Assembly (NCBI GenBank): GCA_023485845.1
Contig: JAMCZE010000010.1
Coordinates: 156,046 to 220,045 of the forward strand
Direction of reading: 5' to 3'
Length of the DNA: 64,000 bases
Origin: Patescibacteria group bacterium
GTDB taxonomy: Bacteria; Patescibacteriota; Microgenomatia; JAMCZE01
Shown one piece after another: positions 32,115 to 60,057 of this stretch (the first letter of the stretch is position 1; the number at the start of each line of letters is the position of its first letter). The notes under the pieces are model-generated. The model was not told the DNA's origin, did not search any database, and was given only the letters and a program-made list of their open reading frames with translations. The position numbers and the translations under genes are program-made.

Positions 32115-32948
32115 CTAAATCTGTATCTTTGAGAACAGCCAGGAGCCCAGGACCAGAAGGGCAACAGTGACACCACAGAGAACCAAGAGATCCAAGGACA
32201 GTGGGAAATAGCCGGCGCCGGTCAGGGTCTGGCGCAGGCCGTCGACCCCATAGGACAGCGGATCAATTTTAACCACCACCTCAAGCGCCCCCGGCAGGTT
32301 ACTTAGCGGAAACAGCGCCCCGGACAGGAAAAACAGCGGCATAATCAAGAAATTCATAATTAATTGAAACCCCTGCATGTCTTCCAGCACCGAAGCAATC
32401 GCCGTTCCCAGGGCGGTGAACAGCGTGGCCGTAAGAATCATAATTAAAATTGCCGGGATAACGGACCAGAGGCTGACAGGACGAAACCCGGCCAGTGTGG
32501 CAATAACCAGAACAATCACGCCCTGCAGTGTCGCCACCGTCGCTCCCCCGGCGGTCCGCCCGATCATAATGGACAGCCGTGACACCGGCGCCACCAGGGT
32601 TTCTTTCAAAAAACCAAACTGGCGGTCCCAAATAATTTCAATGCCGGTGAAAACGGAGGTGAACAGCACCGCCATGGCCACCACGCCCGGGGCCAAAAAC
32701 TCCAAATAGTTGCCGGCCCCGGCTTTTTGGAAAACCGGGCCAAAGCCAAACCCGAGGGCCACCAAAAACAAAATCGGCTGGCCCAAAGAACCGACAATGC
32801 GTGAACGGGAGCGCAAATAGCGCTTCAGTTGCCGCAACCATAATATGTATATCGCGTTCATAGTTAATTTGAAATTGTTTTTATCGTCTCCTCCCCCACA
32901 TTCTTGCTCCGGCGCGCAAATGGTCAATCGCCCCTGCTTCTTCATCAC
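32115..32948 (-). CDS. ABC-2-type transporter permease
   Basis: Six hydrophobic segments. The likely start is MNAIYILWLRQ at about 32861. Confidence 0.75.
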   Translation of the reverse strand: MMKKQGRLTICAPEQECGGGDDKNNFKLTMNAIYILWLRQLKRYLRSRSRIVGSLGQPILFLVALGFGFGPVFQKAGAGNYLEFLAPGVVAMAVLFTSVFTGIEIIWDRQFGFLKETLVAPVSRLSIMIGRTAGGATVATLQGVIVLVIATLAGFRPVSLWSVIPAILIMILTATLFTALGTAIASVLEDMQGFQLIMNFLIMPLFFLSGALFPLSNLPGALEVVVKIDPLSYGVDGLRQTLTGAGYFPLSLDLLVLCGVTVALLVLGSWLFSKIQI

Positions 32949-33711
32949 GAATTGCGTGGCCGGTGAGGGTCAGGAAAGCATCCTCCATGGAAGTCTTTTT
33001 TGTCTGTTTTTTCAGCTGGGCGGGGGTGCCGGCAGCAATAATCTTGCCGTGGTCCATAATCGCCACCTTGCCTGCCGGCAGGCAGGCCCGCTCGGCCTCG
33101 TCCATATAATGCGTTGTGAAGAACACGGTGATGTTTTCTGTTTTATTCAAATTTTTGATGTACTCCCAAATATGATTGCGCGTCTGTGGGTCCAGTCCTT
33201 GGGTTGGCTCGTCCAGAAAGAAAATCTTCGGATGATGAAGCAGGCCGCGAGCAATCTCTAACCGCCGCTTCATTCCCCCGGAAAAGTTTTTCACTAAATC
33301 ATTGCGCCGCTCCCAAAGTTCAACAAATTTTAAAAGTTCCTCGGCTCTTTTGCGACCCAGGTCGCGCGGGACACCATAAAGCACTCCATGAAACTCCAGG
33401 TTTTCCCAGGCCGTCAGCTCGTCATCCAGGCTGGGATCCTGAAAAACAATGCCGAAAGCCCGGCGGACTGCCTCCTGGTCGGTCGCCGGGTCGGCGCCAT
33501 TAATTTCAATCCTGCCCGATGTCGGCGCCAAAAGGGTGGTCAGCATTTTAATCGTCGTGGTCTTGCCCGCCCCGTTGGGCCCCAAAAACGCGAAAATCTC
33601 CCCGGCGGCCACATCAAAAGAAATGTTGTCCACCGCCAGAAAATTATTGAACTTTTTTGTCAACCCGGAAACTTTAATCATGAAAGTTATGCTATCATTG
33701 GACGATGCCAA
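32881..33711 (-). CDS. ABC transporter ATP-binding protein
   Basis: Walker A GPNGAGKTT, signature LSGGMKRRLEIARGL, Walker B IFFLDEPTQGLD. Confidence 0.9.
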   Translation of the reverse strand: MASSNDSITFMIKVSGLTKKFNNFLAVDNISFDVAAGEIFAFLGPNGAGKTTTIKMLTTLLAPTSGRIEINGADPATDQEAVRRAFGIVFQDPSLDDELTAWENLEFHGVLYGVPRDLGRKRAEELLKFVELWERRNDLVKNFSGGMKRRLEIARGLLHHPKIFFLDEPTQGLDPQTRNHIWEYIKNLNKTENITVFFTTHYMDEAERACLPAGKVAIMDHGKIIAAGTPAQLKKQTKKTSMEDAFLTLTGHAIRDEEAGAIDHLRAGARMWGRRR

Positions 33712-34727
33712 AATACAAGCCGGAGATTGACATCCTCAAAGCGACCGCCATTATCGCCGTGGTTTTGATTCACGTCAGCGCCGCCTATATGGCCCACGGC
33801 TACGATCTAATTAACCTGACAGTCAACCAGGCCGCCCGTTTTGCAGTCCCTGTTTTTGTTGCTCTGTCCAGTTTTGGCTTGGCCGGTAAATACCTAGCAA
33901 CTAAGCTGGAGTTGAAAGATTTCTTCGTCCGTCGGGCCCTGCGGCTTTTACCCTGGTTTTTCTTCTGGGAGGTCATCATTTTTGTCACCGTCACCTATGT
34001 TTTGCGCCAAAGCTGGATTCTTTATGACGGGCTGCCATTATGGAAAATTTTTATACTCGGAAAGGCCGATTATCACCTCTATTTCGTGCCAATGATCTTC
34101 GTTCTTTATCTGTTTTTTCCGATATTATTGCAATTTATTAAACGCTTTCCAAAGCTGACCTTGCTAGCTGCTTTTCTGTTTCAAATTTACTGGTATTGGC
34201 AAATCACGACCCAAACCGAACTGCTTTCCAACCGCAATAATGTCTGGACGGACCAAATGCAATATCTCAACCCCCTCACCTGGATTTTTTACTTCGTTTT
34301 CGGCATGTTTTTAGCTCGTGCTAAAAGCTACAAGCTACAAGCTATTAGCCTAGTTGCTTTGTTAGTTGGTCTTGTCTGGACTGTTGCCAGTTCTGGTTAT
34401 CTGATGTCGTCTGGTTTTGAGATCACCGTCGCCACCCGTTTCACCCGCTTCCCGGTCCTACTCTACTCGATTGGGGTAATCTTGTCTGGCCTTCTCGTCT
34501 TACCTTCTCTCCCGCTTACCCGCTTACCCACTTTCCTCACCCGTCTTGGTAAATTATCGTTATTGGTTTATCTCTGCCACACCCTCGTTCTTCGCGCTGT
34601 GCCGCTAACCTTTCCCGAACCGATAGTCTTTATTTTAGTTTTGGCCGGCAGTTATCTCATCGCTGAAGTTTGCTCCCACATTAGCTTCAAGAGACCACCT
34701 CTCGTGAAGCTACTTGCAAAAAACTGA
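33705..34727 (+). CDS. acyltransferase-3 (OafA-like) family membrane acyltransferase
   Basis: N-terminal IDILKATAIIAVVLIHV motif plus about 10 TM segments. Confidence 0.75.
   Translation: MPKYKPEIDILKATAIIAVVLIHVSAAYMAHGYDLINLTVNQAARFAVPVFVALSSFGLAGKYLATKLELKDFFVRRALRLLPWFFFWEVIIFVTVTYVLRQSWILYDGLPLWKIFILGKADYHLYFVPMIFVLYLFFPILLQFIKRFPKLTLLAAFLFQIYWYWQITTQTELLSNRNNVWTDQMQYLNPLTWIFYFVFGMFLARAKSYKLQAISLVALLVGLVWTVASSGYLMSSGFEITVATRFTRFPVLLYSIGVILSGLLVLPSLPLTRLPTFLTRLGKLSLLVYLCHTLVLRAVPLTFPEPIVFILVLAGSYLIAEVCSHISFKRPPLVKLLAKN
34682..34712 (+). repeat. 31-bp hairpin-containing repeat tagcttcaagagaccacctctcgtgaagcta (left flank of the RAYT gene)
   Basis: Identical to 35408-35438. Contains the imperfect palindrome cttcaagaga-ccacc-tctcgtgaag. 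Confidence 0.8.
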
Positions 34728-34747
34728 GAATCAACTATGATTAAACC

Positions 34748-35410
34748 ATGGCGGCCAAAAACTCGATCAAGGCTTACATCCCTGATGGCTACTACCATTT
34801 ATATAATCGTGGGGTTGCTAAAAATGATATTTACCACGATGAAGTTGACTACGCAGTTTTCTTATCCTATTTAAAAGCCTATTTGCTCCCCAAAGACGAA
34901 GAAAAACTACTAGCTATTGTTGCTTCTCCCCAGGCTAGTTATAAGGAAAAGTATCAGGCAACGAAGCTACTGAACTTAAAAAATTTCTGCGGGGAAATAA
35001 CCTTGCTGGCCTATGCTCTCATGCCTAATCATTTCCATTTGTTAATCAAGCAAAAATCGGCCAGCACAATCGATAATTTTATGAATGCGTTGGGCACCAG
35101 ATATGCTGGTTTCTTTAATCGCAAATATCATCGGGTGGGGCCGTTATTCCAGGGGGTTTACAAAGCCGTTCCGATCCAAACCGAAGAACAACTACTCCAT
35201 GTCTCCCGATATATTCACTTAAACCCTAAGGGACAAGGAAATCTGCCCACTTCTCTACCAGAATATCTTGGCCAACGCGACACCGCTTGGGTAAATAGCA
35301 GTGACATCTTGCACCACTTTAACAAGAAAAGTCAAAATAACTCTTATATTGATTTTATGAAAGCCGTTCCCGACTTGACCACAATTCCCCAACTATTAAT
35401 CGACCTTTAG
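34748..35410 (+). CDS. IS200-like/REP-associated Y1 (HUH) transposase (RAYT-type)
   Basis: N-terminal YHLYNRG, HUH motif MPNHFHLLI, catalytic Tyr region GPLFQGVYKAV. 220 aa. AT-rich. Confidence 0.75.
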   Translation: MAAKNSIKAYIPDGYYHLYNRGVAKNDIYHDEVDYAVFLSYLKAYLLPKDEEKLLAIVASPQASYKEKYQATKLLNLKNFCGEITLLAYALMPNHFHLLIKQKSASTIDNFMNALGTRYAGFFNRKYHRVGPLFQGVYKAVPIQTEEQLLHVSRYIHLNPKGQGNLPTSLPEYLGQRDTAWVNSSDILHHFNKKSQNNSYIDFMKAVPDLTTIPQLLIDL

Positions 35411-35438
35411 CTTCAAGAGACCACCTCTCGTGAAGCTA
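35408..35438 (+). repeat. 31-bp hairpin-containing repeat (right flank of the RAYT gene)
   Basis: Identical to 34682-34712. Confidence 0.8.
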
Positions 35439-35457
35439 ATCGCGGAGACATCCAGTG

Positions 35458-36144
35458 CTACTGGCGCAGCTCTTCGGAGACTTGCTCGATCCGTTGCCGA
35501 ACCTGGGCATTTCGAAAACTCCCTTTAGTCGCCCACCAACCAGTGGCACCGCCAAAGGCCAAACCGGTCAACAAGATGTAATTTTGGACATTACCATCAG
35601 TCGTTTTCCCAGCAAAGTCTAATGCCAGCCCAGCAAGCCCACCGCCCAAAAAGCTGAGAGCCTTGTTTTTTAGGCCTTCTTGGCTAGTAATGTCTGGATG
35701 GCCCAAAACCTCAACCGACTTTTCCAATTGAAGTAGAGAGCCGAGAACACCACCAACCAAGCCACTGGTGAAATATTGGTGACTGCCATTAATAAGGTCA
35801 GCAGATTTGAGAACTATAACAATTCCGGCGCCAAGAAGAAATTTTTCCACCAAAGAACGATCGAACTTCCACTTTTCCCCCCTCAGATAAATAAGGCTTG
35901 CCAGGCCACCGAGCGCAATATTGCCCAGGTCCGTTTCCACTGCCGCTTTGATAAGGGTAAGAGTAGTATTAACCCCCAAATTTCCAGCGTTGCCAGCAAC
36001 ACTCGCCACATCGGGGGCATTGCAGCCGGTCAGAGCCAGGGCACCCAAAATCAACGCCGAGGCAGCGACCACCTTCGGATCAATTTTAATCCCCCGCTTT
36101 TTTTCCGCCGTCTTCTCACCATTACTATAGTCTATTTCTTTCAT
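35458..36144 (-). CDS. glycine-rich membrane protein, unknown function
   Basis: ORF with several Gly/Ala-rich hydrophobic segments. Confidence 0.4.
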   Translation of the reverse strand: MKEIDYSNGEKTAEKKRGIKIDPKVVAASALILGALALTGCNAPDVASVAGNAGNLGVNTTLTLIKAAVETDLGNIALGGLASLIYLRGEKWKFDRSLVEKFLLGAGIVIVLKSADLINGSHQYFTSGLVGGVLGSLLQLEKSVEVLGHPDITSQEGLKNKALSFLGGGLAGLALDFAGKTTDGNVQNYILLTGLAFGGATGWWATKGSFRNAQVRQRIEQVSEELRQ

Positions 36145-36228
36145 GGGTCATATATTAACCTATAATGAAACAAATTTCAACTTCTATAGGTTGATTATTT
36201 AATTATAACATAGTATAATCCCTGCCAT

Positions 36229-36561
36229 ATGGACAAAAATGAGACACGGGGAGCGAGATATAGAGATGTCACTGGAAGATGGCGTAACGCTAGGGATCAG
36301 GGTCGCGAAGCAACTGATGTTGCCATCGGCCAAGGACTAGACCATGACAGCTCTCTGGCAATTGGCCTACACGTTGCTACCACTGCCGGTGGTGTAGATG
36401 CAGCCAAAGAGCTTACACAGATGTACTATCAAGCACAAACGTCCAAAGGGATTATAAGAGTGGTCCTAGCAGAACCAAAAGTTGCCCACAAAAAGAACGA
36501 GGGACCTGGCCTTTTACGCCGTCTTTTCATCGTTGCCTTTGCCAGAAATAAGCCTTATTAA
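36229..36561 (+). CDS. hypothetical protein (110 aa)
   Basis: ORF only. Confidence 0.3.
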   Translation: MDKNETRGARYRDVTGRWRNARDQGREATDVAIGQGLDHDSSLAIGLHVATTAGGVDAAKELTQMYYQAQTSKGIIRVVLAEPKVAHKKNEGPGLLRRLFIVAFARNKPY

Positions 36562-37775
36562 CTCTTTTTTACCCCGATGATGATTTCAATCTCCGCGCTG
36601 GTGGAAGCCAGCGGTTCCACAGCCACGGTTTGATAAGTTTGTAAAAGAAGCGTTTGGAGTCCGGCCACGATTTTCTCCGGAACATCTGACGTCGCTAGGA
36701 TCTTTGTCGTGGTGAAACCCGCCGAGGTGGCGTTTTTGGCGTCCAAAACAGTGTAGCCGTCGCCCTTAAGCGTGTCCGCCAATCGGCCCGCTTCTCCAGT
36801 CACCAGTGTTCCATTAAGAACACGGACCGGATAATCGGAAATCTTGGGTTCGGGGGCTGGCGGTGGGGCTGGCTGCTCAACGACTGGTGAGGGCGTCTCT
36901 GGTTTTTGCTGCCCGACAGTCTTTATAATCACGGCCGTTAAGAGCGCCCCGACAATAATAGCCGCTAAAAGCAGAAGAACTTTTTTGCTTGGCCGGCCGG
37001 CAGGCAGATTGGGCAACCTAAAATTAAATCTCCGACCAGTGCGGGCGGAAAGATTAACAATTTGGTCATAAATATCCGTTGTTGCCAAAGGGGTGATTTC
37101 CAGCCCTTGCTGGGTCCGCAATTTATTAGCTGTTTCCGGGTCAAACACCCCGACGGTGTAGGCTTTTTTGATCCCGTCAAGATTATGATTGGCGACAAAC
37201 TCGCCAAATCGGGTAACAAAAACACTTTTTTCAAAAGCGGCAATCTCGGAAACCGCCCCGTTGAGCGCCACCGCCACAGCAATCTCCTTGTCAAACGAGG
37301 CTAATAGCAAATATTGTCCCTGTTGGGGCAAACCGGTTATCAACACATTAAGGGCACTTTTCACCGCCACCACCTTTTTGCCCGATTCCAAAAAAGGTTT
37401 TTGCAAATCTTCGACCAATTTTTTTTCAAAAGCAACATAAGTTATTTTGTCCTTGCCTAACTGATTATTGGAGATGACTAATTCTTCCTTAAAATAGGGC
37501 AGGGACTGGACAAAACCGTCCACCGGATCGGTGGCGGGCAGGGTTTTAGTGAAAGTTTTGTCCGCCGGCAAAAACAGCGTCACTTCCGGGTCTTCCCGCA
37601 GAGCGTCTTTTTGGGAAAAGGCCATTTTCAATTGGCCGGAAAACTTGGCAGCGTCAGCCACATAAGCATCGCGCAGCACCTCAGGGGAGAAACTGATCTG
37701 GCCGGCAAACAAGCGTGTGCTGCCTTTATAAGCCAATAGTTTCACATTGTCCTTCTCCAGAAAGGCCACTAACAT
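36558..37775 (-). CDS. membrane protein with a C-terminal LytR_C domain
   Basis: TM helix near residue 250, a Pro-rich linker, then YPVRVLNGTLVTGEAGRLADTLKGDGYTV (LytR_C-like). Confidence 0.55.
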   Translation of the reverse strand: MLVAFLEKDNVKLLAYKGSTRLFAGQISFSPEVLRDAYVADAAKFSGQLKMAFSQKDALREDPEVTLFLPADKTFTKTLPATDPVDGFVQSLPYFKEELVISNNQLGKDKITYVAFEKKLVEDLQKPFLESGKKVVAVKSALNVLITGLPQQGQYLLLASFDKEIAVAVALNGAVSEIAAFEKSVFVTRFGEFVANHNLDGIKKAYTVGVFDPETANKLRTQQGLEITPLATTDIYDQIVNLSARTGRRFNFRLPNLPAGRPSKKVLLLLAAIIVGALLTAVIIKTVGQQKPETPSPVVEQPAPPPAPEPKISDYPVRVLNGTLVTGEAGRLADTLKGDGYTVLDAKNATSAGFTTTKILATSDVPEKIVAGLQTLLLQTYQTVAVEPLASTSAEIEIIIGVKKS

Positions 37776-37787
37776 AGCAGTTCTAGT

Positions 37788-38411
37788 CTAGATAAAGTTT
37801 TTAACAAAAGCAAGTCGGTGAAAGCGGCTTGGGCCGTGCTTTTTAATCGCGGCGATGTGTTTCGCCGTTCCATACCCCTTATTTTGGCGCCAGCCATAGA
37901 CACTGCGCTTTTTCATTAATCTGTCCCGGTGAACCTTGGCAATAATGGAAGCGGCGGCGATGGAAAGAGACTTTTGGTCGCCCTTAATAATGGCTCTTTG
38001 ATTGGCCAGTCCCACGCCGGGAATATATTTAATATGGAAAGCGTCCACTAACACAAATTGACGATCCCCGGCCACCTGGGCCACGGCGCTTCGCATGGCT
38101 TTAGCTGTCGCCTTGACAATGCCGTGCTTATTAATAAAGCTCACACTTGCCTCCCCAATCCCCCAGGCCGCGTTCTGTTTAATTATTTTCGCCAGTTCTT
38201 CCCTTTTCTTCGCCGACAGTCTCTTCGAGTCATCAATCTCGTCTAAAAAAGAACCGTTCTTAAAAAGAACAGTTCTTTTTAAGCTAACCGCCCCCGCCAC
38301 GACCGGGCCAGCCAGGGCTCCCCGCCCCACTTCGTCCACCCCGATTACCGTTTTATATCCTCGCCGCCAGGCCTGTTTCTCAAAACCGAAATCCGGTTTT
38401 TTGCTAATCAT
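37788..38411 (-). CDS. rnhB: ribonuclease HII
   Basis: VIGVDEVGRGALAGPVVAGAV active-site region. 207 aa. Confidence 0.9.
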   Translation of the reverse strand: MISKKPDFGFEKQAWRRGYKTVIGVDEVGRGALAGPVVAGAVSLKRTVLFKNGSFLDEIDDSKRLSAKKREELAKIIKQNAAWGIGEASVSFINKHGIVKATAKAMRSAVAQVAGDRQFVLVDAFHIKYIPGVGLANQRAIIKGDQKSLSIAAASIIAKVHRDRLMKKRSVYGWRQNKGYGTAKHIAAIKKHGPSRFHRLAFVKNFI

Positions 38412-38433
38412 CAGCCAATTTTAGCACTCCAAC

Positions 38434-38790
38434 TTGACAAATCGACTATCAAGATGGAAAATGCCATTAATGACAATTAGGGAAAGAAATCGCATTTTAC
38501 ATGGGGTTGACAAGTTAGCTGATAAAAGTGCCAAGGTTGCTTTTAAGTCCGAGGAAAAGGATCAGCCTGTCCACTCTATTAAATCATTATTAGCAGGACT
38601 TGACGGGCTAAAAGGTTATAGTGAGGTAGCGACTTCCTGTAATAGACTTGGGCTGTTGACTTCAGAGGAGAAAGAAGTAGTCGGTGACCACATAAAAGCA
38701 ACACGAAGCGCACTTTCCCACGCCGTTGATGAGGCCTTAACCGATGAGCGGCTTAGGGTCCGGGCGGCTAAGTCCAAAAAGTCCTCTTGA
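38434..38790 (+). CDS. hypothetical protein (118 aa)
   Basis: ORF only. Confidence 0.3.
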   Translation: MTNRLSRWKMPLMTIRERNRILHGVDKLADKSAKVAFKSEEKDQPVHSIKSLLAGLDGLKGYSEVATSCNRLGLLTSEEKEVVGDHIKATRSALSHAVDEALTDERLRVRAAKSKKSS

Positions 38791-38856
38791 TTTCCTAATT
38801 AAGGCAGAGTATACTAGCCCTTGACAACTCCGGAAGGAGTATTTTTTTAGGCTTAT

Positions 38857-39087
38857 ATGGCCAATATTGGCGACAATTTCACGATCACCAGACCGGATTT
38901 TGGCAAGAACCCGGTGGTGTTTTTTCAGGAAGTCAAAGCCGAGTTGTCCAAAGTGATTTGGCCAAAGCGCCCGGAGCTTATTAAACTGACCGCGGTGGTC
39001 ATCGGCGTTTCTGCCCTTGTCGCCGCCTATTTAGGCGGGTTAGACTATATATTTTCTAAAGGGATAGAATTACTGTTAAAAAAGTAG
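38857..39087 (+). CDS. secE: preprotein translocase subunit SecE
   Basis: FQEVKAELSKVIWPKRPELIKLTAVVIGVSALVAAYL. Position immediately upstream of nusG. Confidence 0.75.
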   Translation: MANIGDNFTITRPDFGKNPVVFFQEVKAELSKVIWPKRPELIKLTAVVIGVSALVAAYLGGLDYIFSKGIELLLKK

Positions 39088-39110
39088 CACAATTTAAAAT
39101 TTGTAAAGGT

Positions 39111-39677
39111 ATGGACGATCAGACTCAACAGACAACTCAGGAGGTCATTCCCGACAATGCCCGGTGGTACGTGCTGCACACATATTCCGGTCATGAGAAC
39201 AAGGTGGCGGCGGCAATCCGCCAGCGCGTGGACGCGATGAAAATTGTGGGGCGCGTGTTTGACATTTTGGTGCCCACCCGGGAGATTGTGACCGTGAAGC
39301 GGGGCAAGAAAGAGGAAGTTAAGGAAAAGATTTTTCCGGGCTATATCCTGGTCCGCATGATTTTGGATGATGATTCCTGGCTGGTCGTCCGGACCACTCC
39401 CGGTGTCACCTCCTTTGTTGGCACCGGCAACCGGCCCACGCCGTTGTCAGAAAAAGAAGTCGACGCGATCATGAAGTTTTCCGCCCTGGCGGCGCCGAAA
39501 TTCAAGTCCACCTTCTCCGCCGGCGAAGCGGTCAAAATTGTGGACGGCCCATTTGCCGACTTTTTGGGCACGGTGGAAAGTCTGGACGACGCGCGAGGAA
39601 AAGTCAAAGTGCTAGTAAGCATATTTGGCCGAGAGACACCAGTGGAACTCGACTTTTTGCAAGTCTCAAAACTTTAA
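39111..39677 (+). CDS. nusG: transcription antitermination factor NusG
   Basis: NGN domain (WYVLHTYSGHENKV) plus KOW motif (GEAVKIVDGPFADFLGTV). Confidence 0.9.
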   Translation: MDDQTQQTTQEVIPDNARWYVLHTYSGHENKVAAAIRQRVDAMKIVGRVFDILVPTREIVTVKRGKKEEVKEKIFPGYILVRMILDDDSWLVVRTTPGVTSFVGTGNRPTPLSEKEVDAIMKFSALAAPKFKSTFSAGEAVKIVDGPFADFLGTVESLDDARGKVKVLVSIFGRETPVELDFLQVSKL

Positions 39678-39678
39678 A

Positions 39679-40104
39679 ATGGCCAAGAAAGTTAAAACAA
39701 TCATTAAATTAAATTTGAAGGCCGGGGAAGCCACTCCTGCCCCGCCGGTGGGTCCGGCATTGGGCCAGCACGGGCTGCCGATCATGGACTTTGTCCGGGC
39801 CTACAACGAAAAAACCGCCGACAAAAAAGGCCAGGTTATTCCAGCCGTGATCACGGTTTATGAAGACCGAACGTTTTCTTTTGTCACCAAACTGCCGCCG
39901 GTGTCCGAACTGATTAAGAAAGAATTAAAACTAGAGCACGGGTCAAAAAAACCAGGCCGGGAAGAGGCGGGCGTGTTAACCACGGCTGCGGCTAAAATCA
40001 TCGCTAAAGTTAAAATGCAGGATCTTAATGCCGACGGCGACCTTGAGGCGGCCACAAAAATCGTCCAAGGCACAGCAAGAAGCATGGGGATACGCACAGA
40101 ATGA
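39679..40104 (+). CDS. rplK: 50S ribosomal protein L11
   Basis: MAKKVKTIIKLNLKAGEATPAPPVGPALGQHG. The start was chosen at the internal ATG at 39679. Confidence 0.95.
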   Translation: MAKKVKTIIKLNLKAGEATPAPPVGPALGQHGLPIMDFVRAYNEKTADKKGQVIPAVITVYEDRTFSFVTKLPPVSELIKKELKLEHGSKKPGREEAGVLTTAAAKIIAKVKMQDLNADGDLEAATKIVQGTARSMGIRTE

Positions 40105-40120
40105 GCAATGAGCAATAACT

Positions 40121-40873
40121 ATGGGAAAAATTAAAACTGTCAAAATGGGTGATTTGGAAGCAGAAGAGAAAGCTCGGGAGAAAGCCGAGGTCAAACGTGA
40201 GCAAAAGAAAGCAGCCAAGGGAGAGATAAAAGAAGAAAAGCCAGAGACTAAAATCAAGAAAAAAGAGATCAAAAAAGCAGGCCGCGGCAAGAGATATCTT
40301 GAGGTGCGAAGCCTGGTTGACACCAAGAAAAAATATTCGATTGCGCAGGCGGTGGAATTAGTCAAGAAAACCTCAATTTCCAAGTTTGACGGCGCGGTGG
40401 AAGTGCACATTAATGTGGCAGACAACCTGCCTGCCGGCAGGCAGGGGGCTTTGCGCGGCAGTGTTGCTCTCCCCCACGGCGCGGGCAAACAGGTGCGCGT
40501 CCGCGTTGCTGACGACGAGCTAATTGCTAATCCAAAAATCGATTTTGACATTTTAGTTGCCAGTCCGGAGATGATGCCAAAACTGGCCAAGATCGCCAAA
40601 ATCCTCGGCCCGCGGGGGCTGATGCCCAACCCAAAGAACGGCACCATTGGTGATGATCCGGAAAAACTGGCCCTTCGACTCCGCTCTGGGCAGCAAAGCT
40701 GGAAAACGGAGACCGCTGCCCCGATTATTCACACCATTATCGGCAAAGTCTCCTTTGAACCCAAAAAACTGGAAGAAAACTTTTCCGCGTTGACAAAATC
40801 GGTCGGAACGGATAAAATAAAATCGCTTTTTATCAAAGCGACCATGGGGCCGAGTATTCAACTCGAACTCTAA
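40121..40873 (+). CDS. rplA: 50S ribosomal protein L1
   Basis: LRGSVALPHGAGK and ASPEMMPKLAKIAKILGPRGLMPNPK motifs. Confidence 0.95.
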   Translation: MGKIKTVKMGDLEAEEKAREKAEVKREQKKAAKGEIKEEKPETKIKKKEIKKAGRGKRYLEVRSLVDTKKKYSIAQAVELVKKTSISKFDGAVEVHINVADNLPAGRQGALRGSVALPHGAGKQVRVRVADDELIANPKIDFDILVASPEMMPKLAKIAKILGPRGLMPNPKNGTIGDDPEKLALRLRSGQQSWKTETAAPIIHTIIGKVSFEPKKLEENFSALTKSVGTDKIKSLFIKATMGPSIQLEL

Positions 40874-40936
40874 AGCGACGAGCAAGTCGCGATTCCAGAG
40901 ACCGTAAGCGTTAACTAAGTCTTACGCAGGAAATAT

Positions 40937-41431
40937 ATGGCAAACCAAAAAAACATTGATATTGTTTCTTCACTCTCGGAAAAACTTTCCCGGGCAAAAT
41001 CTGTCGTCCTCACCGACTACCGCGGCCTGACCCACAAACAATCGGAAGAACTGCACCGCGCCGTTAAAAAAGTCGGCGGTGAATATGTTATTGCCAAAAA
41101 CTCCCTTTTAAAAATAGCCTGCCTGCCGGCAGGCAGGCCGGTGCCCAATTTGACGGAGCCAACGGGAGCGCTCCTGGCTTATGACGACGCCCTGGCCCCC
41201 CTTAAGGAGCTGTTCAAAACCGTCAAGACTCTGGGGATTCCCAAAGTGAAGTTTGGTTTTATTGAAAACAAGGAGTACTCCGGTAGCGAAATTGAGACTA
41301 TCGCCAAAATCCCCTCTCGGGAAATCCTGCTGGGACAACTTGTTTTTACTCTGAACTACAACATTCAACAATTAGCATATGTTCTCGATCAAGTTAAAAA
41401 TCAAAAGTCAAAAGTCAAAAATTCAAGTTAA
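40937..41431 (+). CDS. rplJ: 50S ribosomal protein L10
   Basis: Position and sequence (VVLTDYRGLTHKQSEELHRAV...VIAKNSLL). Confidence 0.9.
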   Translation: MANQKNIDIVSSLSEKLSRAKSVVLTDYRGLTHKQSEELHRAVKKVGGEYVIAKNSLLKIACLPAGRPVPNLTEPTGALLAYDDALAPLKELFKTVKTLGIPKVKFGFIENKEYSGSEIETIAKIPSREILLGQLVFTLNYNIQQLAYVLDQVKNQKSKVKNSS

Positions 41432-52876: not shown

Positions 52877-53054
52877 CTGATCCGGTTTGATCCACTCCCG
52901 TTGGGATCTCCCCTGCTAAAAACTCTAAGATAGAAAATTGTCACTTTTTTAAAACTGCCAAACTGCCAAATCTGAACACTTTTTTTCGAGCCTAAAATCT
53001 GGTTTATGTGACTTAAGTAACTTAAGTTACTTAAGTCACTTATAGGTCGTCGCT

Positions 53055-54059
53055 TCAGCGACGACTTAGGCTCTTTTTATAAAATTCAATGTTCTCCATC
53101 GCTACCCCGCAGCCCTTGACGACACAAAAAAGTGGGTCATCGGCCACATGGACCGGAACACCAAGAGTATGGGTCATCAACTTATCTAAATTTCGCAGAT
53201 TAGCCGTCCCTCCACTAAGCACGATGCCCTTATCAATTATGTCTGAGGCTAATTCTGGGGGGGTTTCCTCTAGCACTCCCTTTACGGCACTGATAACGAG
53301 CGTCAAGGTCGCCGTTATCGCCTCCACGACCTCATTGGAAGTCAAATTAAGCATTCGGGGCAGCCCGGACGCGCCATCTCGACCGCGAACTTCCATTTGC
53401 CCGGTGGCTGGCAGGGCCGAGCCAATAGTCATTTTAATCTCTTCCGCAGTGCGTTCCCCCACCATGAGATTATATTTTTTCTTAAGATAAGTTTGGATTG
53501 CTTCGTCGATTTTGTTGCCCGCCACCCGGGCCGACCGATGAATCACCACTCCACCCAAAGAGATCACTGCCGCTTCGGTGCTGCCGCCGCCGATGTCCAC
53601 GATCATTGACCCATTGGGGTTGGCAATGGGAATTTTCGCCCCGATGGCCGCCGCCAGCGGTTCGTCAATTAAGTAAGCCGTCTTAGCCCCGGCAGAAACG
53701 GTGGCGTCCATCACCGCCCGGCGCTCCACCTGTGTCACACCGGCGGGAACGCAGATCATCACCTCCGGACGAAACAGGCGGGAATTGCCGCAGGTCCGAT
53801 CAATAAAATAAGCCAGCATTGCCTGGGTGACTTCGTAGTCGGCAATCACCCCGTCGCGCATCGGCCGCTTGGCCATGATGTTGCCGGGGGTCCGCCCGAG
53901 CATTTGTTTGGCTTCATTGCCCACCGCCACCACTTTACCGTCATCCACCGTCACCACCACCACGGTCGGTTCATTAAGCACCACCCCCTGGCCCACCAAA
54001 AAGACCAGGGAGTTTGCTGTCCCCAAATCAATGCCTAACCGCTTTCCAAAATTAAACAT
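53055..54059 (-). CDS. mreB: rod shape-determining protein MreB
   Basis: LGIDLGTANS, DIGGGSTE and LSGGTA actin-fold motifs. Confidence 0.95.
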   Translation of the reverse strand: MFNFGKRLGIDLGTANSLVFLVGQGVVLNEPTVVVVTVDDGKVVAVGNEAKQMLGRTPGNIMAKRPMRDGVIADYEVTQAMLAYFIDRTCGNSRLFRPEVMICVPAGVTQVERRAVMDATVSAGAKTAYLIDEPLAAAIGAKIPIANPNGSMIVDIGGGSTEAAVISLGGVVIHRSARVAGNKIDEAIQTYLKKKYNLMVGERTAEEIKMTIGSALPATGQMEVRGRDGASGLPRMLNLTSNEVVEAITATLTLVISAVKGVLEETPPELASDIIDKGIVLSGGTANLRNLDKLMTHTLGVPVHVADDPLFCVVKGCGVAMENIEFYKKSLSRR

Positions 54060-58450: not shown

Positions 58451-60057
58451 ATCCTTTCCAAGGCTTCGATGCCCAAAAGATTTAAGCCGTTTTTTAAAAC
58501 ATCCGCTGTCGTCGCGGTCAATTTCAACCGCAAATCATTGCCCAAAATCGGGCAATTGTTATAGAAATTATTATAGCGCTTCGCCAGTTCAAATAAATAG
58601 GAACAGACTAAATTTGGGGCATATTGCCTAGCCGCCGCCTCCACCACCTCGGGAAAACGGTAGAGATAGCGCAAAAGAGCCAGTTCTTCATTAGTTAGTT
58701 CTCCCGTGATTTTTGCCTTTTGATTTTTGCCTTTTGATTTGCGAAGTACGCTCTGCGCACGAGCAAACGTGTATTGCAAATACGGCCCCGAGTCACCCTG
58801 CAGTTCAAACATTTTCTCCCAATCAAAAACAATGTCGCTTTGGACACCATGTTTTAAGTCAAAATATTTAATCGCCCCAATCCCCACAGCCTGGGCAGCT
58901 TCCTGACTGCCCAATTTAGCCGCCCTGGCAATCGCCTCCTGTAAGATGCCTTCCAATTTTGGTGTGTTTCCTTCTCTGGTCCGGAATCGGCCGCTGGGCC
59001 AGCGGTACATCCCATGGCGAGTGTGGCACAAAATCGCTCCCTGTTTAACATAGCCCAGTTGTCTTGCCACCGCAAAAACCTGACGAAAATGCAGTTCCTG
59101 ATCAACACCCACTTCATAGATCATTATGTCCGGATTCCACTGTTCTTTACGAAATTTTAACGTGGCCAAATCACGAGTGGCGTAAGTGGTTGCCCCATCG
59201 CTTTTAACCAGCATCAGCGGGATTTTAATGCCGGGAATTTCAACCACTCGGGCGCCATCACTTAACTTGGAAATTTTTTGCGCGTCCATAATCACTGCCG
59301 GCATTTTGTCCTCATAGAAACTTTCCCCATAAGCAAAGTCAATCTTCACACCAAGCAGGTCAAAAATCCGGTTAAATTCTTCCATGGAAACATCCACGCA
59401 CTTTTTCCAAAGATTCCGGGCCTTTTTGTCGCCGTCTTCCAGCCGCTTGAACCAGAATCTGGCGGCCGCTTCCATCTGCGGTGTTGACTGCCGGTGAAAT
59501 TCAACGTACCATTTTTCCAAATCATCAATGGTGAAATCGCCCTTTGCCTTCTCGTTAATCATGTAGAGCAGCTTGCCGAATTGGGTTCCCCAGTCGCCCA
59601 GATGGTTGTCACCGATCACTTTGTAGCCCAATGACTGATAAATGTTATAAAGAGCCTGGCCAATGATCGTGGAGCGCAGATGGCCCACGCCAAAACGGCG
59701 GGCAATGTTAGGAGCCGCATAGTCAATCACCACCGTTTTTCCTTTGCCAATTGGCGCGATCTCAATCTTTTGCGCTGCTTCCATTAACGCTGCTGGGGAC
59801 AAGGTGAAGTTAATAAATCCCGGCCCAGCAACACTAGCTTCAAGAGAGGTGGTCTCTTGAAGCTGGACCACAATTTTTTGTGCCACTTCCCGGGGATGGC
59901 CAGTTTTTAACTTCAGGGCAATGTTTGTGGAATAATCGCGGTGCTCCTGGGCTGTCGGGTGTTCCAGCTCAATATCTTCCGGCTTTAGATTAATTTCCGG
60001 GAAAGCTGTTTTCACAGCTTTTAAAACGGCCTGGCGAATGTCATCGGCAATCATCAT
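58447..60057 (-). CDS. argS: arginyl-tRNA synthetase
   Basis: AGPGFINF, the class I HIGH-type region (APNIARRFGVGHLRST), and overall length. Confidence 0.9.
   Translation of the reverse strand: MMIADDIRQAVLKAVKTAFPEINLKPEDIELEHPTAQEHRDYSTNIALKLKTGHPREVAQKIVVQLQETTSLEASVAGPGFINFTLSPAALMEAAQKIEIAPIGKGKTVVIDYAAPNIARRFGVGHLRSTIIGQALYNIYQSLGYKVIGDNHLGDWGTQFGKLLYMINEKAKGDFTIDDLEKWYVEFHRQSTPQMEAAARFWFKRLEDGDKKARNLWKKCVDVSMEEFNRIFDLLGVKIDFAYGESFYEDKMPAVIMDAQKISKLSDGARVVEIPGIKIPLMLVKSDGATTYATRDLATLKFRKEQWNPDIMIYEVGVDQELHFRQVFAVARQLGYVKQGAILCHTRHGMYRWPSGRFRTREGNTPKLEGILQEAIARAAKLGSQEAAQAVGIGAIKYFDLKHGVQSDIVFDWEKMFELQGDSGPYLQYTFARAQSVLRKSKGKNQKAKITGELTNEELALLRYLYRFPEVVEAAARQYAPNLVCSYLFELAKRYNNFYNNCPILGNDLRLKLTATTADVLKNGLNLLGIEALERM

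What the first reader, a model, noticed from the sequence alone, without database searches (positions are those of the whole stretch)
33066..41138. Perfect 20-22-bp palindrome CCTGCCTGCCGGCAGGCAGG embedded in-frame in three unrelated genes (ABC ATPase, rplA, rplJ), always encoding LPAGR
Exact copies at 40426-40445 (rplA: NLPAGRQGA) and 41117-41138 (rplJ: IACLPAGRPV), plus a 19/20 copy at 33066-33088 (ABC ATPase, minus strand: ACLPAGKV). A half-degenerate copy at 36989-37008 lies in the LytR_C protein (LPAGRPS). Because of its CTGCCTGCC periodicity the palindrome encodes L-P-A-G-R in two frames on both strands. It can therefore sit in either orientation and frame without a stop codon. In L1 and L10 it replaces a variable loop rather than adding length. 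A 20-mer recurring by chance three times in 45 kb is essentially impossible. It behaves like a tiny coding-tolerant palindromic element (compare Rickettsia RPEs, which are much longer) or a protein-binding site seeded into genes.
Basis: seen in the sequence. Interest (0 to 1): 0.8.

Follow-up and report, generated by a model that had tools for sequence, protein, structure and literature searches.

The report
Hairpin repeat of tRNA-linked GIY-YIG nucleases
The 20-base palindrome inside three genes of this candidate-phyla bacterium is a real, precisely inserted DNA hairpin found from Patescibacteria to Bacteroidota, and it is the signature repeat of a small, mobile GIY-YIG nuclease gene that sits beside tRNA genes, a pairing that the papers searchable here do not describe.

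Summary
CCTGCCTGCCGGCAGGCAGG ('P') is exact in rplA (40426-40445) and rplJ (41118-41137) and 19/20 in an ABC ATPase gene (33067-33086). Shuffles expect 0.01 copies. Independent assemblies reproduce it.

Against the closest orthologues these are insertions (+7, +6 and +3/4 residues), not loop replacements. The LytR 'copy' is not supported.

P is not specific to this genome. At least 120 loci in reference genomes of many phyla and 35 viral-type contigs carry it. Two control palindromes gave 0 hits. Cultured phages, plasmids and E. coli have no exact copy.

The decisive result concerns an ~80-residue single-domain GIY-YIG gene that lay beside P in a few loci. It carries P (at most 2 mismatches) within 130 nt upstream or 200 nt downstream in 58 of 80 metagenome loci. 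There P sits in a redundant copy of the neighbouring tRNA gene as an exact 20-nt insertion with no target duplication. It follows an A in 51 of 53 contexts, mostly at loop edges.

Variant copies covary as a 6-bp stem, tetraloop and 4-nt tail, not as the full palindrome.

Best reading: the window holds solitary, frame-restored copies of the cognate hairpin of a mobile nuclease, analogous to Ssn/NTS and RAYT/REP. The association is shown; the enzyme mechanism is inferred.

The parts
40426..40445 (.). Exact copy of the 20-nt hairpin element P inside rplA, read as LPAGRQ. Net +21 nt (7 codons) relative to the closest orthologues.
   Evidence: In an AlphaFold model the inserted residues (about 101-110) form a loop between strands 92-99 and 112-116, with pLDDT 58 against about 88 on either side.
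41117..41138 (.). Exact copy of P (41118-41137; 22-bp palindrome with its flanks) inside rplJ, read as CLPAGR. Net +18 nt (6 codons). The following PVPN looks like a frameshifted remnant of GGYQ.
   Evidence: Present in Logan assembly L164. GCA_023378825.1 instead has a 57-nt deletion starting at the palindrome centre.
33067..33086 (.). 19/20 copy (CTTGCCTGCCGGCAGGCAGG) inside the ABC-transporter ATPase gene (minus strand), read as CLPAGK. Net +3 or +4 codons relative to orthologues.
40121..40873 (+). rplA (ribosomal protein L1), host gene
   Evidence: PF00687; orthologue alignment A2
40937..41431 (+). rplJ (ribosomal protein L10), host gene
   Evidence: PF00466; alignment A4
32881..33711 (-). 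ABC transporter ATP-binding protein, host gene
   Evidence: PF00005; alignment A5
36989..37008 (.). 15/20 resemblance in the LytR_C gene. Doubtful: not significant alone and no length gain.

Best explanation
The copies in rplA, rplJ and the ABC ATPase gene are solitary copies of a 20-nt hairpin element, P. P is the cognate repeat of a horizontally mobile family of roughly 80-residue, single-domain GIY-YIG nucleases. Those nuclease genes sit immediately upstream (less often downstream) of an intact tRNA gene. A second, redundant copy of part or all of that tRNA lies beside them and is interrupted by P.

Shown: P enters DNA as an exact 20-nt unit without target duplication. Beside the nuclease gene it follows an A on the tRNA sense strand and lies mainly at loop edges. 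Across variants it keeps a 6-bp stem, a tetraloop and a 4-nt tail. P and this nuclease family cover overlapping taxa.

Inferred: the nuclease recognises the folded hairpin in single-stranded DNA, as Ssn nucleases do with NTS repeats. Its cuts, with host repair or replication, copy P to new sites. In coding DNA only copies whose frame was restored survive (+21, +18, +9/12 nt here). Because P has no stop codon in any frame, these copies read LPAGR(Q), CLPAGR or PACRQAG and persist in surface loops.
For: Breadth and specificity. At least 120 loci in GTDB species representatives, spanning Patescibacteria, Omnitrophota, Bacteroidota (including isolates), Planctomycetota, Proteobacteria, Bdellovibrionota and Nitrospirota-like lineages, carry the pattern (P with C/T allowed at position 2 and A/G at 19), with unrelated flanks. 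IMG/VR holds 35 stretches with exact P. An arm-swapped and a permuted control palindrome gave 0 hits each.

Link to the nuclease. An HMM of the small GIY-YIG ORFs found 9 such ORFs in the P-centred loci, 6 of them within 150 nt of P. In the reverse test, a protein-only search with the GIY-YIG alignment returned 80 metagenome loci. Of these, 41 have exact P and 52 have P with at most 2 mismatches 10-78 nt upstream of the ATG. Twelve have P just past the ORF, and 58 of 80 have it on at least one side.

Anatomy. An intact tRNA starts -17 to +27 nt after the ORF in about 55 loci. In most of these loci the upstream partial tRNA copy differs from it by an insertion of exactly 20 nt, with no duplication. 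By my tally of the table, the insertion index clusters at 20-24, 14-15, 31-32 and 39. The base 5' of P is A in 51 of 53 contexts.

Structure. On 18 variants the register 1-6:11-16 is 93.5% paired with 7 compensatory cells (0 of 500 shuffles reach this). The full palindrome shows no excess over shuffles.

Taxa. Source names for the nuclease family are candidate-phyla groups and Bacteroidota, both of which also carry P.

Insertion in the window genes.
Against: No GIY-YIG gene lies in the 64-kb window, so the link for this genome rests on the family-wide association. Only about 3-6% of P copies found by DNA search lie next to a GIY-YIG gene or in tRNA-derived DNA. GIY-YIG enzymes are hydrolytic nucleases, and no joining activity that could explain a precise insertion is evident. 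P does not fit the published Ssn-related motif. The nearest solved relatives by sequence are UPF0213 proteins and SLX1, so Ssn membership is unproven. Copy density looks low, usually 1 per 8-kb locus, unlike the hundreds of NTS or REP copies per genome. Exact P at one rplA codon position in 5 scattered orthologues is not predicted by random insertion. Two of those five do not follow the 'after A' rule.
Confidence: 0.6

Rival explanations
1. P is not the nuclease's substrate but a device of the tRNA-targeting selfish gene. It is kept in the redundant tRNA copy because it destroys the homing endonuclease's own target (immunity). Alternatively it splits the direct repeat that could delete the ORF. 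The solitary copies elsewhere then arise through host recombination or template switching from these units.
For: P always lies in the redundant tRNA copy, never in the intact one. Free-standing GIY-YIG endonucleases such as T4 SegB cut within tRNA gene clusters and cause tRNA-plus-endonuclease duplications, and donor alleles are typically poorly cut (PMC2330249; PMC13096335). Target sites in rplA (CCTGC) and in the L163 rplJ (CCTGCC) share microhomology with P.
Against: This does not explain why one 20-nt sequence is used at many different tRNA species and phyla. It does not explain the covariation of the stem or the 'after A' rule. These ~80-residue proteins have no DNA-binding domain like those of Seg or Tev enzymes.
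Confidence: 0.2
2. P is a REP-like repeat moved by the IS200-like/RAYT-like tyrosine (Y1 HUH) transposase encoded at 34748-35410, in the middle of the cluster of copies.
For: The Y1_Tnp gene lies 1.7-5.7 kb from the three copies. The relative L122, which has two P copies, also has a Y1_Tnp fragment. Y1 transposases insert hairpin elements without target duplication (established knowledge of IS200/IS605).
Against: The gene is flanked by its own, different 37-nt hairpin repeat (34681-34717 and 35407-35443, with a third copy at 59835-59858). No Y1_Tnp homologue occurs in the 120 + 35 other P loci. The match to the REP-associated transposase model is 39 bits against a cut-off of 80. P carries no GTAG or CGTC tag.
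Confidence: 0.04
3. P is a host-selected functional site: a DNA uptake sequence, an operator for a dimeric protein, a terminator or an RNA hairpin, kept because the host uses it.
For: The sequence is perfectly conserved at synonymous positions in rplA of five orthologues whose flanks have diverged. The hairpin is stable, at -8 kcal/mol as DNA.
Against: Density is far too low for an uptake signal (3 copies in 64 kb, usually 1 per 8-kb locus). Locations have no common relation to genes: about 20% lie in long ORFs and the rest are intergenic with unrelated flanks. Presence is patchy among close orthologues. The hairpin is not followed by a T-run (read from the flanks).
Confidence: 0.05
4. The copies are sequencing, assembly or adapter artefacts.
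For: Most carriers are metagenome-assembled genomes. One assembly differs at the rplJ copy. Some 'tandem units' occur only at contig ends, as expected when a short repeat makes a loop in the assembly graph.
Against: Three assemblies from different read sets give identical sequence. P is present in isolates and, to judge by contig and accession names, in long-read assemblies. The copies are in frame within essential genes. Compensatory substitutions occur in variants. The placement relative to tRNA paralogues is consistent.
Confidence: 0.01

Closest known systems
Ssn single-stranded-DNA nucleases (GIY-YIG, cd10448) with NTS/SRM hairpin repeats (Chenal et al. 2025, PMC11893778)
   Same: A small single-domain GIY-YIG protein whose gene is flanked by a 20-50 nt hairpin repeat: 71% of ssnA homologues have a motif nearby, against 58 of 80 here. 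Further copies are dispersed in the genome. The repeat is oriented (a hairpin plus a conserved unpaired part). The family is widespread across phyla.
   Different: P does not match the SRM consensus HGTCWY.... The protein's nearest solved relatives by sequence are UPF0213 proteins and SLX1, and cd10448 membership could not be tested. The gene is embedded in a duplicated tRNA. P is the same 20-mer across phyla rather than co-diverging with its nuclease. Copy density looks low. About 20% of copies lie in long ORFs, against 2% of NTS lying inside genes in N. meningitidis.
REP/REPIN repeats with RAYT (Y1 HUH) transposases
   Same: A short GC-rich hairpin repeat served in trans by one gene that is itself flanked by the repeat. 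Insertion without target duplication is typical of the related IS200/IS605 family.
   Different: No Y1 gene accompanies P, and the one in the window has its own hairpin. P has no GTAG or CGTC tag. REPs are lineage-specific and extragenic.
Free-standing GIY-YIG homing endonucleases in tRNA clusters (phage T4 SegB; PMC2330249, PMC13096335)
   Same: A GIY-YIG gene lying among tRNA genes, with duplication of tRNA segments next to the endonuclease gene.
   Different: By my knowledge Seg proteins are about 200 residues with a DNA-binding domain. No cognate hairpin repeat is known for them, and they are phage-borne.
Rickettsia palindromic elements (RPE), from my own knowledge
   Same: Palindromic repeats found in frame inside protein-coding genes, adding surface peptide segments.
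   Different: RPEs are about 100-150 bp, confined to one genus, and have no identified enzyme. P is 20 nt and occurs across phyla.
Mitochondrial GC clusters, byp elements and repetitive hairpin-forming elements (my knowledge; PMC2800124 appeared in a search but I did not read it)
   Same: Small, GC-rich, hairpin-forming optional insertions scattered in intergenic and coding DNA of relatively AT-rich genomes.
   Different: They are organellar, heterogeneous in sequence, and some are bypassed during translation. No nuclease partner has been defined.

Membership tests
Ssn / SRM (PMC11893778) | Single-domain GIY-YIG protein of about 80-110 residues | tested here: met
   PF01541 is the only strong domain hit; proteins are mostly 77-94 residues
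Ssn / SRM (PMC11893778) | Protein belongs to CDD family cd10448 | not testable with these tools
   No CDD library is available. NCBIfam gave no hit. The nearest PDB sequences are UPF0213 EF2693/BH0048 (E about 6e-4) and SLX1.
Ssn / SRM (PMC11893778) | Hairpin repeat flanks the nuclease gene | tested here: met
   58 of 80 loci have P (at most 2 mismatches) within 130 nt upstream or 200 nt downstream. Six loci show P on both sides of the ORF, though in three of them (L184, L188, L233) the second copy sits at a contig end.
Ssn / SRM (PMC11893778) | Repeat matches the SRM consensus HGTCWYN(0-2)YYVSBRHN(0-5)WNVSBRGN(0-2)RNCYNB | tested here: not met
   P itself does not fit the consensus. Only a loose form of the consensus matched, across the junction of one of 162 copies (L022), where P sits in the loop.
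Ssn / SRM (PMC11893778) | Site-specific cleavage of single-stranded DNA only | not testable with these tools
   Requires biochemistry
REP / RAYT | Repeat associated with, and flanking, a Y1 HUH transposase gene | tested here: not met
   The Y1_Tnp gene at 34748-35410 is flanked by a different 37-nt hairpin. No Y1 homologue occurs in 155 other P loci.
REP / RAYT | GTAG or CGTC tag at one end of an imperfect palindrome; extragenic location | tested here: not met
   Flank profile shows only A at -1. About 20% of copies lie in long ORFs.
MITE (miniature inverted-repeat transposable element) | Terminal inverted repeats plus a fixed-length target-site duplication | tested here: not met
   Paralogue comparison shows an exact 20-nt insertion with no duplication in most of the roughly 55 type-A loci. 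Only 8% of solitary copies abut direct repeats of 7 nt or more, and the repeat length varies.
Free-standing GIY-YIG homing endonuclease (Seg-like) | GIY-YIG domain plus a separate DNA-binding domain; cleaves the allele that lacks the gene | tested here: not met
   No second domain in the ~80-residue proteins. Cleavage is not testable here.
DNA uptake sequence (DUS/USS) | About one copy per kb throughout the genome | tested here: not met
   3 copies in 64 kb, all within 8 kb; usually 1 per 8-kb locus elsewhere

The most novel reading that the evidence does not exclude
P could be the smallest mobile DNA unit known: a 20-nt hairpin copied precisely and without target duplication, mostly after an A at hairpin-loop edges in single-stranded DNA, through the action of an ~80-residue GIY-YIG nuclease. 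The nuclease gene parasitises tRNA genes and has spread between distant phyla. As a by-product P would write the same LPAGR-type loop into proteins, including ribosomal proteins L1 and L10, repeatedly and independently.
Probability: 0.3. Interest if true: 0.9.

Novelty: new variant of a known kind. Interest (0 to 1): 0.72.

Why it matters
If the pairing holds, it extends the recently discovered hairpin-plus-GIY-YIG principle (Ssn/NTS) to a second, structurally distinct system. This system has one exceptionally well-defined 20-nt site conserved across phyla, which makes it immediately testable as a single-stranded-DNA tool.

It would reveal a very compact selfish module, of roughly 0.3-0.4 kb: a tRNA fragment carrying the hairpin plus a nuclease ORF of about 240 nt. 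Annotators of tRNA genes and pseudogenes in candidate-phyla and Bacteroidota genomes would need to recognise it.

It would also give a concrete example of a mobile sequence that inserts into essential, conserved genes and survives because it is open in all six frames. Finally, it flags a source of assembly breaks and deletion polymorphism at palindromes in metagenome-assembled genomes.

Tried and rejected
- **Co-encoded proteins.** All-against-all clustering of ORFs in 120 P-centred loci, and separately in the multi-copy loci, found no recurrent neighbour except the small GIY-YIG ORFs.
- **Y1_Tnp as the agent.** Rejected, because it has its own flanking hairpin and is absent from the other loci.
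- **Rfam.** Only tRNAs matched at gathering thresholds.
- **General hairpin-loop preference.** MFE folding of the joined flanks gave a weak result (p = 0.048; nesting depth no different from controls). A stricter stem test gave a roughly 3-fold enrichment affecting only about 10% of copies.
- **SRM regular expression.** No meaningful matches.
- **Literature.** Searches for the 18-mer and 14-mer cores, and several keyword sets, found no paper containing the sequence.
- **Cultured collections.** Phages, plasmids and E. coli genomes hold no exact copy.
- **'Tandem arrays' of the unit in L184, L188 and L233.** Discounted, because the second unit always sits at a contig end, as expected from a loop in the assembly graph.
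- **Look-up of the 164-residue L10.** Returned nothing.
- **The LytR_C 'copy'.** Rejected as an insertion.


Full report
**1. The observation**

The 20-mer CCTGCCTGCCGGCAGGCAGG, here called P, is exact at 40426-40445 and 41118-41137. A 19/20 copy (CTTG...) lies at 33067-33086. Dinucleotide-preserving shuffles of the window expect 0.01 matches at up to 3 mismatches.

The 10- to 16-nt cores occur only at these three places in 64 kb. The host genes are rplA (PF00687), rplJ (PF00466) and an ABC-transporter ATPase on the minus strand (PF00005).

Read directly from the sequence, P has no stop codon in any frame. It gives LPAGRQ, CLPAGR or PACRQAG, identically on both strands.

Two independent Logan assemblies (SRR10252151, SRR10278331) are 100% identical to the window over 15.5 kb and 5.7 kb. 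The first includes both ribosomal-protein copies. The second includes the rplA copy and ends 24 nt before the rplJ copy.

An NCBI twin (GCA_023378825.1, 99.9% identical) keeps the ABC and rplA copies. It lacks 57 nt (19 codons) beginning at the centre of the rplJ copy.

The fourth 'copy', in the LytR_C gene, is 15/20. It shows no length gain against its orthologue, so I drop it.

**2. Insertion, not replacement**

- **L1.** Most relatives among the 24 closest homologues read ...NVTDKN-LRG.... The window and three others carry seven extra residues at that point.
- **L10.** The closest orthologues (74% identical or less) read KIAGGYQLTGP where the window reads KIACLPAGRPVPNLTEP, a gain of 6 residues. 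Deleting the 20 nt leaves AAA ATA GCC GGT GCC CAA T TTG. That is K-I-A-G-A-Q plus one stray base before L-T. PVPN therefore looks like the shifted reading of the old codons, with the frame restored by a 2-nt loss. This step is my inference.
- **ABC ATPase.** The gain is 3-4 residues.
- **Structure.** An AlphaFold model of L1 places the insert in a loop between two strands, with pLDDT 58 against about 88 on either side.

**3. P is widespread and specific**

The pattern allowed C/T at position 2 and A/G at position 19. The carriers include many Patescibacteria, Omnitrophota, Bacteroidota (among them isolates of Winogradskyella, Flagellimonas, Longitalea and Flavivirga) and Planctomycetota. Gamma- and Deltaproteobacteria, Bdellovibrionales, Thermodesulfovibrio and Chloroflexi also appear. 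To judge by contig and accession names, some of these assemblies are long-read assemblies.

The flanks are unrelated and the boundary of the repeat is sharp. IMG/VR holds 35 stretches with exact P. An arm-swapped palindrome and a permuted palindrome gave none.

No exact copy exists in 50,697 cultured phage records, 72,556 plasmids or 5,426 E. coli genomes. No paper in the searchable library contains the sequence.

About 20% of copies lie in long ORFs and the rest look intergenic. Three flank contexts are enriched among the solitary copies:
- loops of local hairpins: 10.5% against 3.7% of control positions;
- abutting direct repeats of 7 nt or more: 8% against 0.5%;
- the centre of an older P copy (L021, L046, L145, L127/L149).

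**4. What it belongs to**

Clustering all ORFs around P gave one recurrent family, small GIY-YIG ORFs. An HMM of them found nine in the P-centred loci, six within 150 nt of P.

In L041, L120 and L154 the arrangement is the same. A 5' fragment of a tRNA carries P, the ORF follows 10-20 nt later, and in L041 and L120 an intact copy of the same tRNA then follows. The region past the ORF in L154 was not examined.

The reverse test was a protein-only search of JGI metagenomes with the GIY-YIG alignment. It confirmed 519 of 600 candidate stretches and returned the best 80 loci. Results in these 80:
- exact P lies 10-78 nt upstream of the ATG in 41;
- P with at most 2 mismatches lies upstream in 52;
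- P lies just past the ORF in 12;
- P lies on at least one side in 58.

Several of the remaining loci carry a different GC-rich hairpin in the same position (L209, L232/L235, L189).

ARAGORN finds an intact tRNA starting -17 to +27 nt after the ORF in about 55 loci. The species include Leu, Arg, Lys, Phe, Asn, Met, Gly, Val and Gln. Aligning the upstream DNA to that tRNA shows a copy of its 5' part, from nucleotide 0 to nucleotide 27-66. In most of these loci it is interrupted by exactly 20 nt, either P or a 20-nt variant, with no duplicated target.

In a minority of loci the order is intact tRNA, ORF, then a second tRNA copy carrying P (L178, L179, L196, L213, L187).

By my tally of the table, the insertion index clusters as follows:
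- 20-24, about 33 loci (3' edge of the D-loop);
- 14-15, about 9 loci;
- 8-12, about 7 loci;
- 31-32 and 39, 7 loci (edges of the anticodon loop);
- a few in the variable loop or T-loop.

The base before P on the tRNA sense strand is A in 51 of 53 distinct contexts. The base after P is unconstrained.

Names attached to the nuclease family in public sources are candidate-phyla groups (WWE3, Shapiro-, Kerfeld-, Colwell-, Pace-, Wolfe- and Magasanikbacteria) and Bacteroidota (Dokdonia, Zunongwangia, Namhaeicola, Leeuwenhoekiella, Cytophagales). Both groups are also among the carriers of P.

**5. What is conserved**

I compared 18 distinct 20-nt variants, all on the strand of the nuclease gene.
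- **Pairing 1-6 with 11-16** (loop 7-10, tail 17-20): 93.5% satisfied, with seven doubly changed cells in three pairs. None of 500 shuffles reached this.
- **The mirror register 5-10 with 15-20:** weaker support (86%, five such cells, 1 of 500 shuffles).
- **The full palindrome 1-8 with 13-20:** no excess over shuffles.

The sample is small and hand-collected. It nevertheless points to an oriented stem-loop-plus-tail. A perfect palindrome presents that structure on both strands. As DNA, the canonical hairpin folds at -8 kcal/mol.

**6. How it most likely works**

*Shown.*
- P and this GIY-YIG family are tightly associated.
- P insertion is a precise 20-nt event without target duplication.
- Beside the nuclease gene, insertion follows an A and favours loop edges.
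- The stem covaries.
- The window copies are insertions with restored frames in permissive loops.

*Inferred, by analogy with Ssn nucleases.* Ssn enzymes bind NTS hairpins in single-stranded DNA and cut beside them (PMC11893778). By analogy, the nuclease here would recognise folded P. Its cuts, together with host repair or replication, would copy P to other exposed hairpin loops. Most such copies would be solitary: only about 3-6% of copies found by DNA search are gene-linked or lie in tRNA-derived DNA.

*Unexplained.* I cannot explain the joining chemistry. I also cannot explain why the redundant tRNA copy almost always holds P. Possible reasons are immunity of a homing target, prevention of direct-repeat deletion of the ORF, or simply the nearest neutral target.

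**7. Alternatives**

The RAYT-like Y1_Tnp gene at 34748-35410 is flanked by its own 37-nt hairpin repeat, with a third copy at 59835. It is absent from all other P loci, so it is not the agent.

An uptake or regulatory site is unlikely, given the low density and the patchy presence among orthologues.

An artefact is excluded by concordant independent assemblies, presence in isolates, in-frame conservation and compensatory changes.

**8. An open puzzle in rplA**

Five of 120 L1 homologues carry exact P at the same codon phase, while neighbouring synonymous sites differ freely. They are the window/P0001 and the genes in L158, L122, L159 and L160. The two carriers visible in the printed part of a neighbour-joining tree (P0009 and P0095) lie far apart, each next to non-carriers.

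Either the site is hit repeatedly, or an old insertion is held unchanged by a constraint at the DNA or RNA level. The target contains CCTGC.

A second rplJ site carries P in L163.

**9. Verdict**

The finding is real. It is not an isolated oddity of this genome. It is the visible trace of a cross-phylum hairpin-plus-nuclease system that resembles Ssn/NTS and RAYT/REP but fails their sequence-level membership tests. I rate it a new variant of a known kind, of high interest. The association is well supported. The mechanism is still inferential.

Noticed in passing
window 34681-35443 and 59835-59858: An IS200-like/RAYT-like Y1_Tnp gene (34748-35410) is bracketed by direct copies of a 37-nt hairpin, TTAGCTTCAAGAGACCACCTCTCGTGAAGCTA... 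The first copy lies inside the 3' end of the acyltransferase gene, and a third copy lies at 59835-59858 on the minus strand. Both Logan contigs start at 35412, right after this gene, which suggests a repeated or variable insertion.
   Followed up: partly
window 41129-41185 vs L001 (GCA_023378825.1): The twin NCBI assembly lacks 57 nt (19 codons, AGRPVPNLTEPTGALLAYD) of rplJ starting at the centre of the palindrome. This is either a palindrome-stimulated in-frame deletion variant or an assembly error. A patch of about 13-20 nt also differs near window 35879-35900.
   Followed up: partly
window 53008-53039: A 32-bp perfect palindrome, GTGACTTAAGTAACTTAAGTTACTTAAGTCAC, lies in an intergenic gap, followed by a second GC-rich hairpin at about 53046-53067. 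It is unrelated in sequence to P.
   Followed up: no
window 1-30000: Base composition steps from 0.38-0.44 G+C (1-20 kb) to 0.50-0.54 (20-30 kb). The cause was not examined.
   Followed up: no
L161:1362-1381 and 2954-2973: A relative without the rplA insertion has two copies of the variant CCTGCCTGCCGCAAGGCAGG (GCAA loop). The first lies within an inverted repeat TTTTCAAGTAC..G(A)GTTTGAAAA after secE. The second, before rplA, has the right arm GTACTTGAAAA, but its left flank is partly masked.
   Followed up: no
L215:438-788: ARAGORN calls three tandem tRNA genes of 93-97 nt. The one inspected (565-661) is a complete tRNA carrying a 1-mismatch copy of P after nucleotide 9. Whether such tRNAs are functional or processed is unknown.
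   Followed up: no
L064:2751-4892: A GIY-YIG domain of this family is inserted in frame in a type I restriction specificity subunit (HsdS). P lies about 40 nt upstream of the domain and is read as PACRQAG.
   Followed up: partly
L147:2284 and L124:8616 (IMG/VR contigs): P sits in the variable loop of a tRNA-Met gene on a viral-type contig. After P is removed, ARAGORN calls a complete tRNA in L147. Such a hairpin would mimic a long variable arm.
   Followed up: no
L161:2021-2308, L163:1585-1944: Genes for 23S rRNA intervening-sequence proteins (PF05635) lie close to the ribosomal-protein operons of P-carrying relatives. Any link to P was not examined.
   Followed up: no
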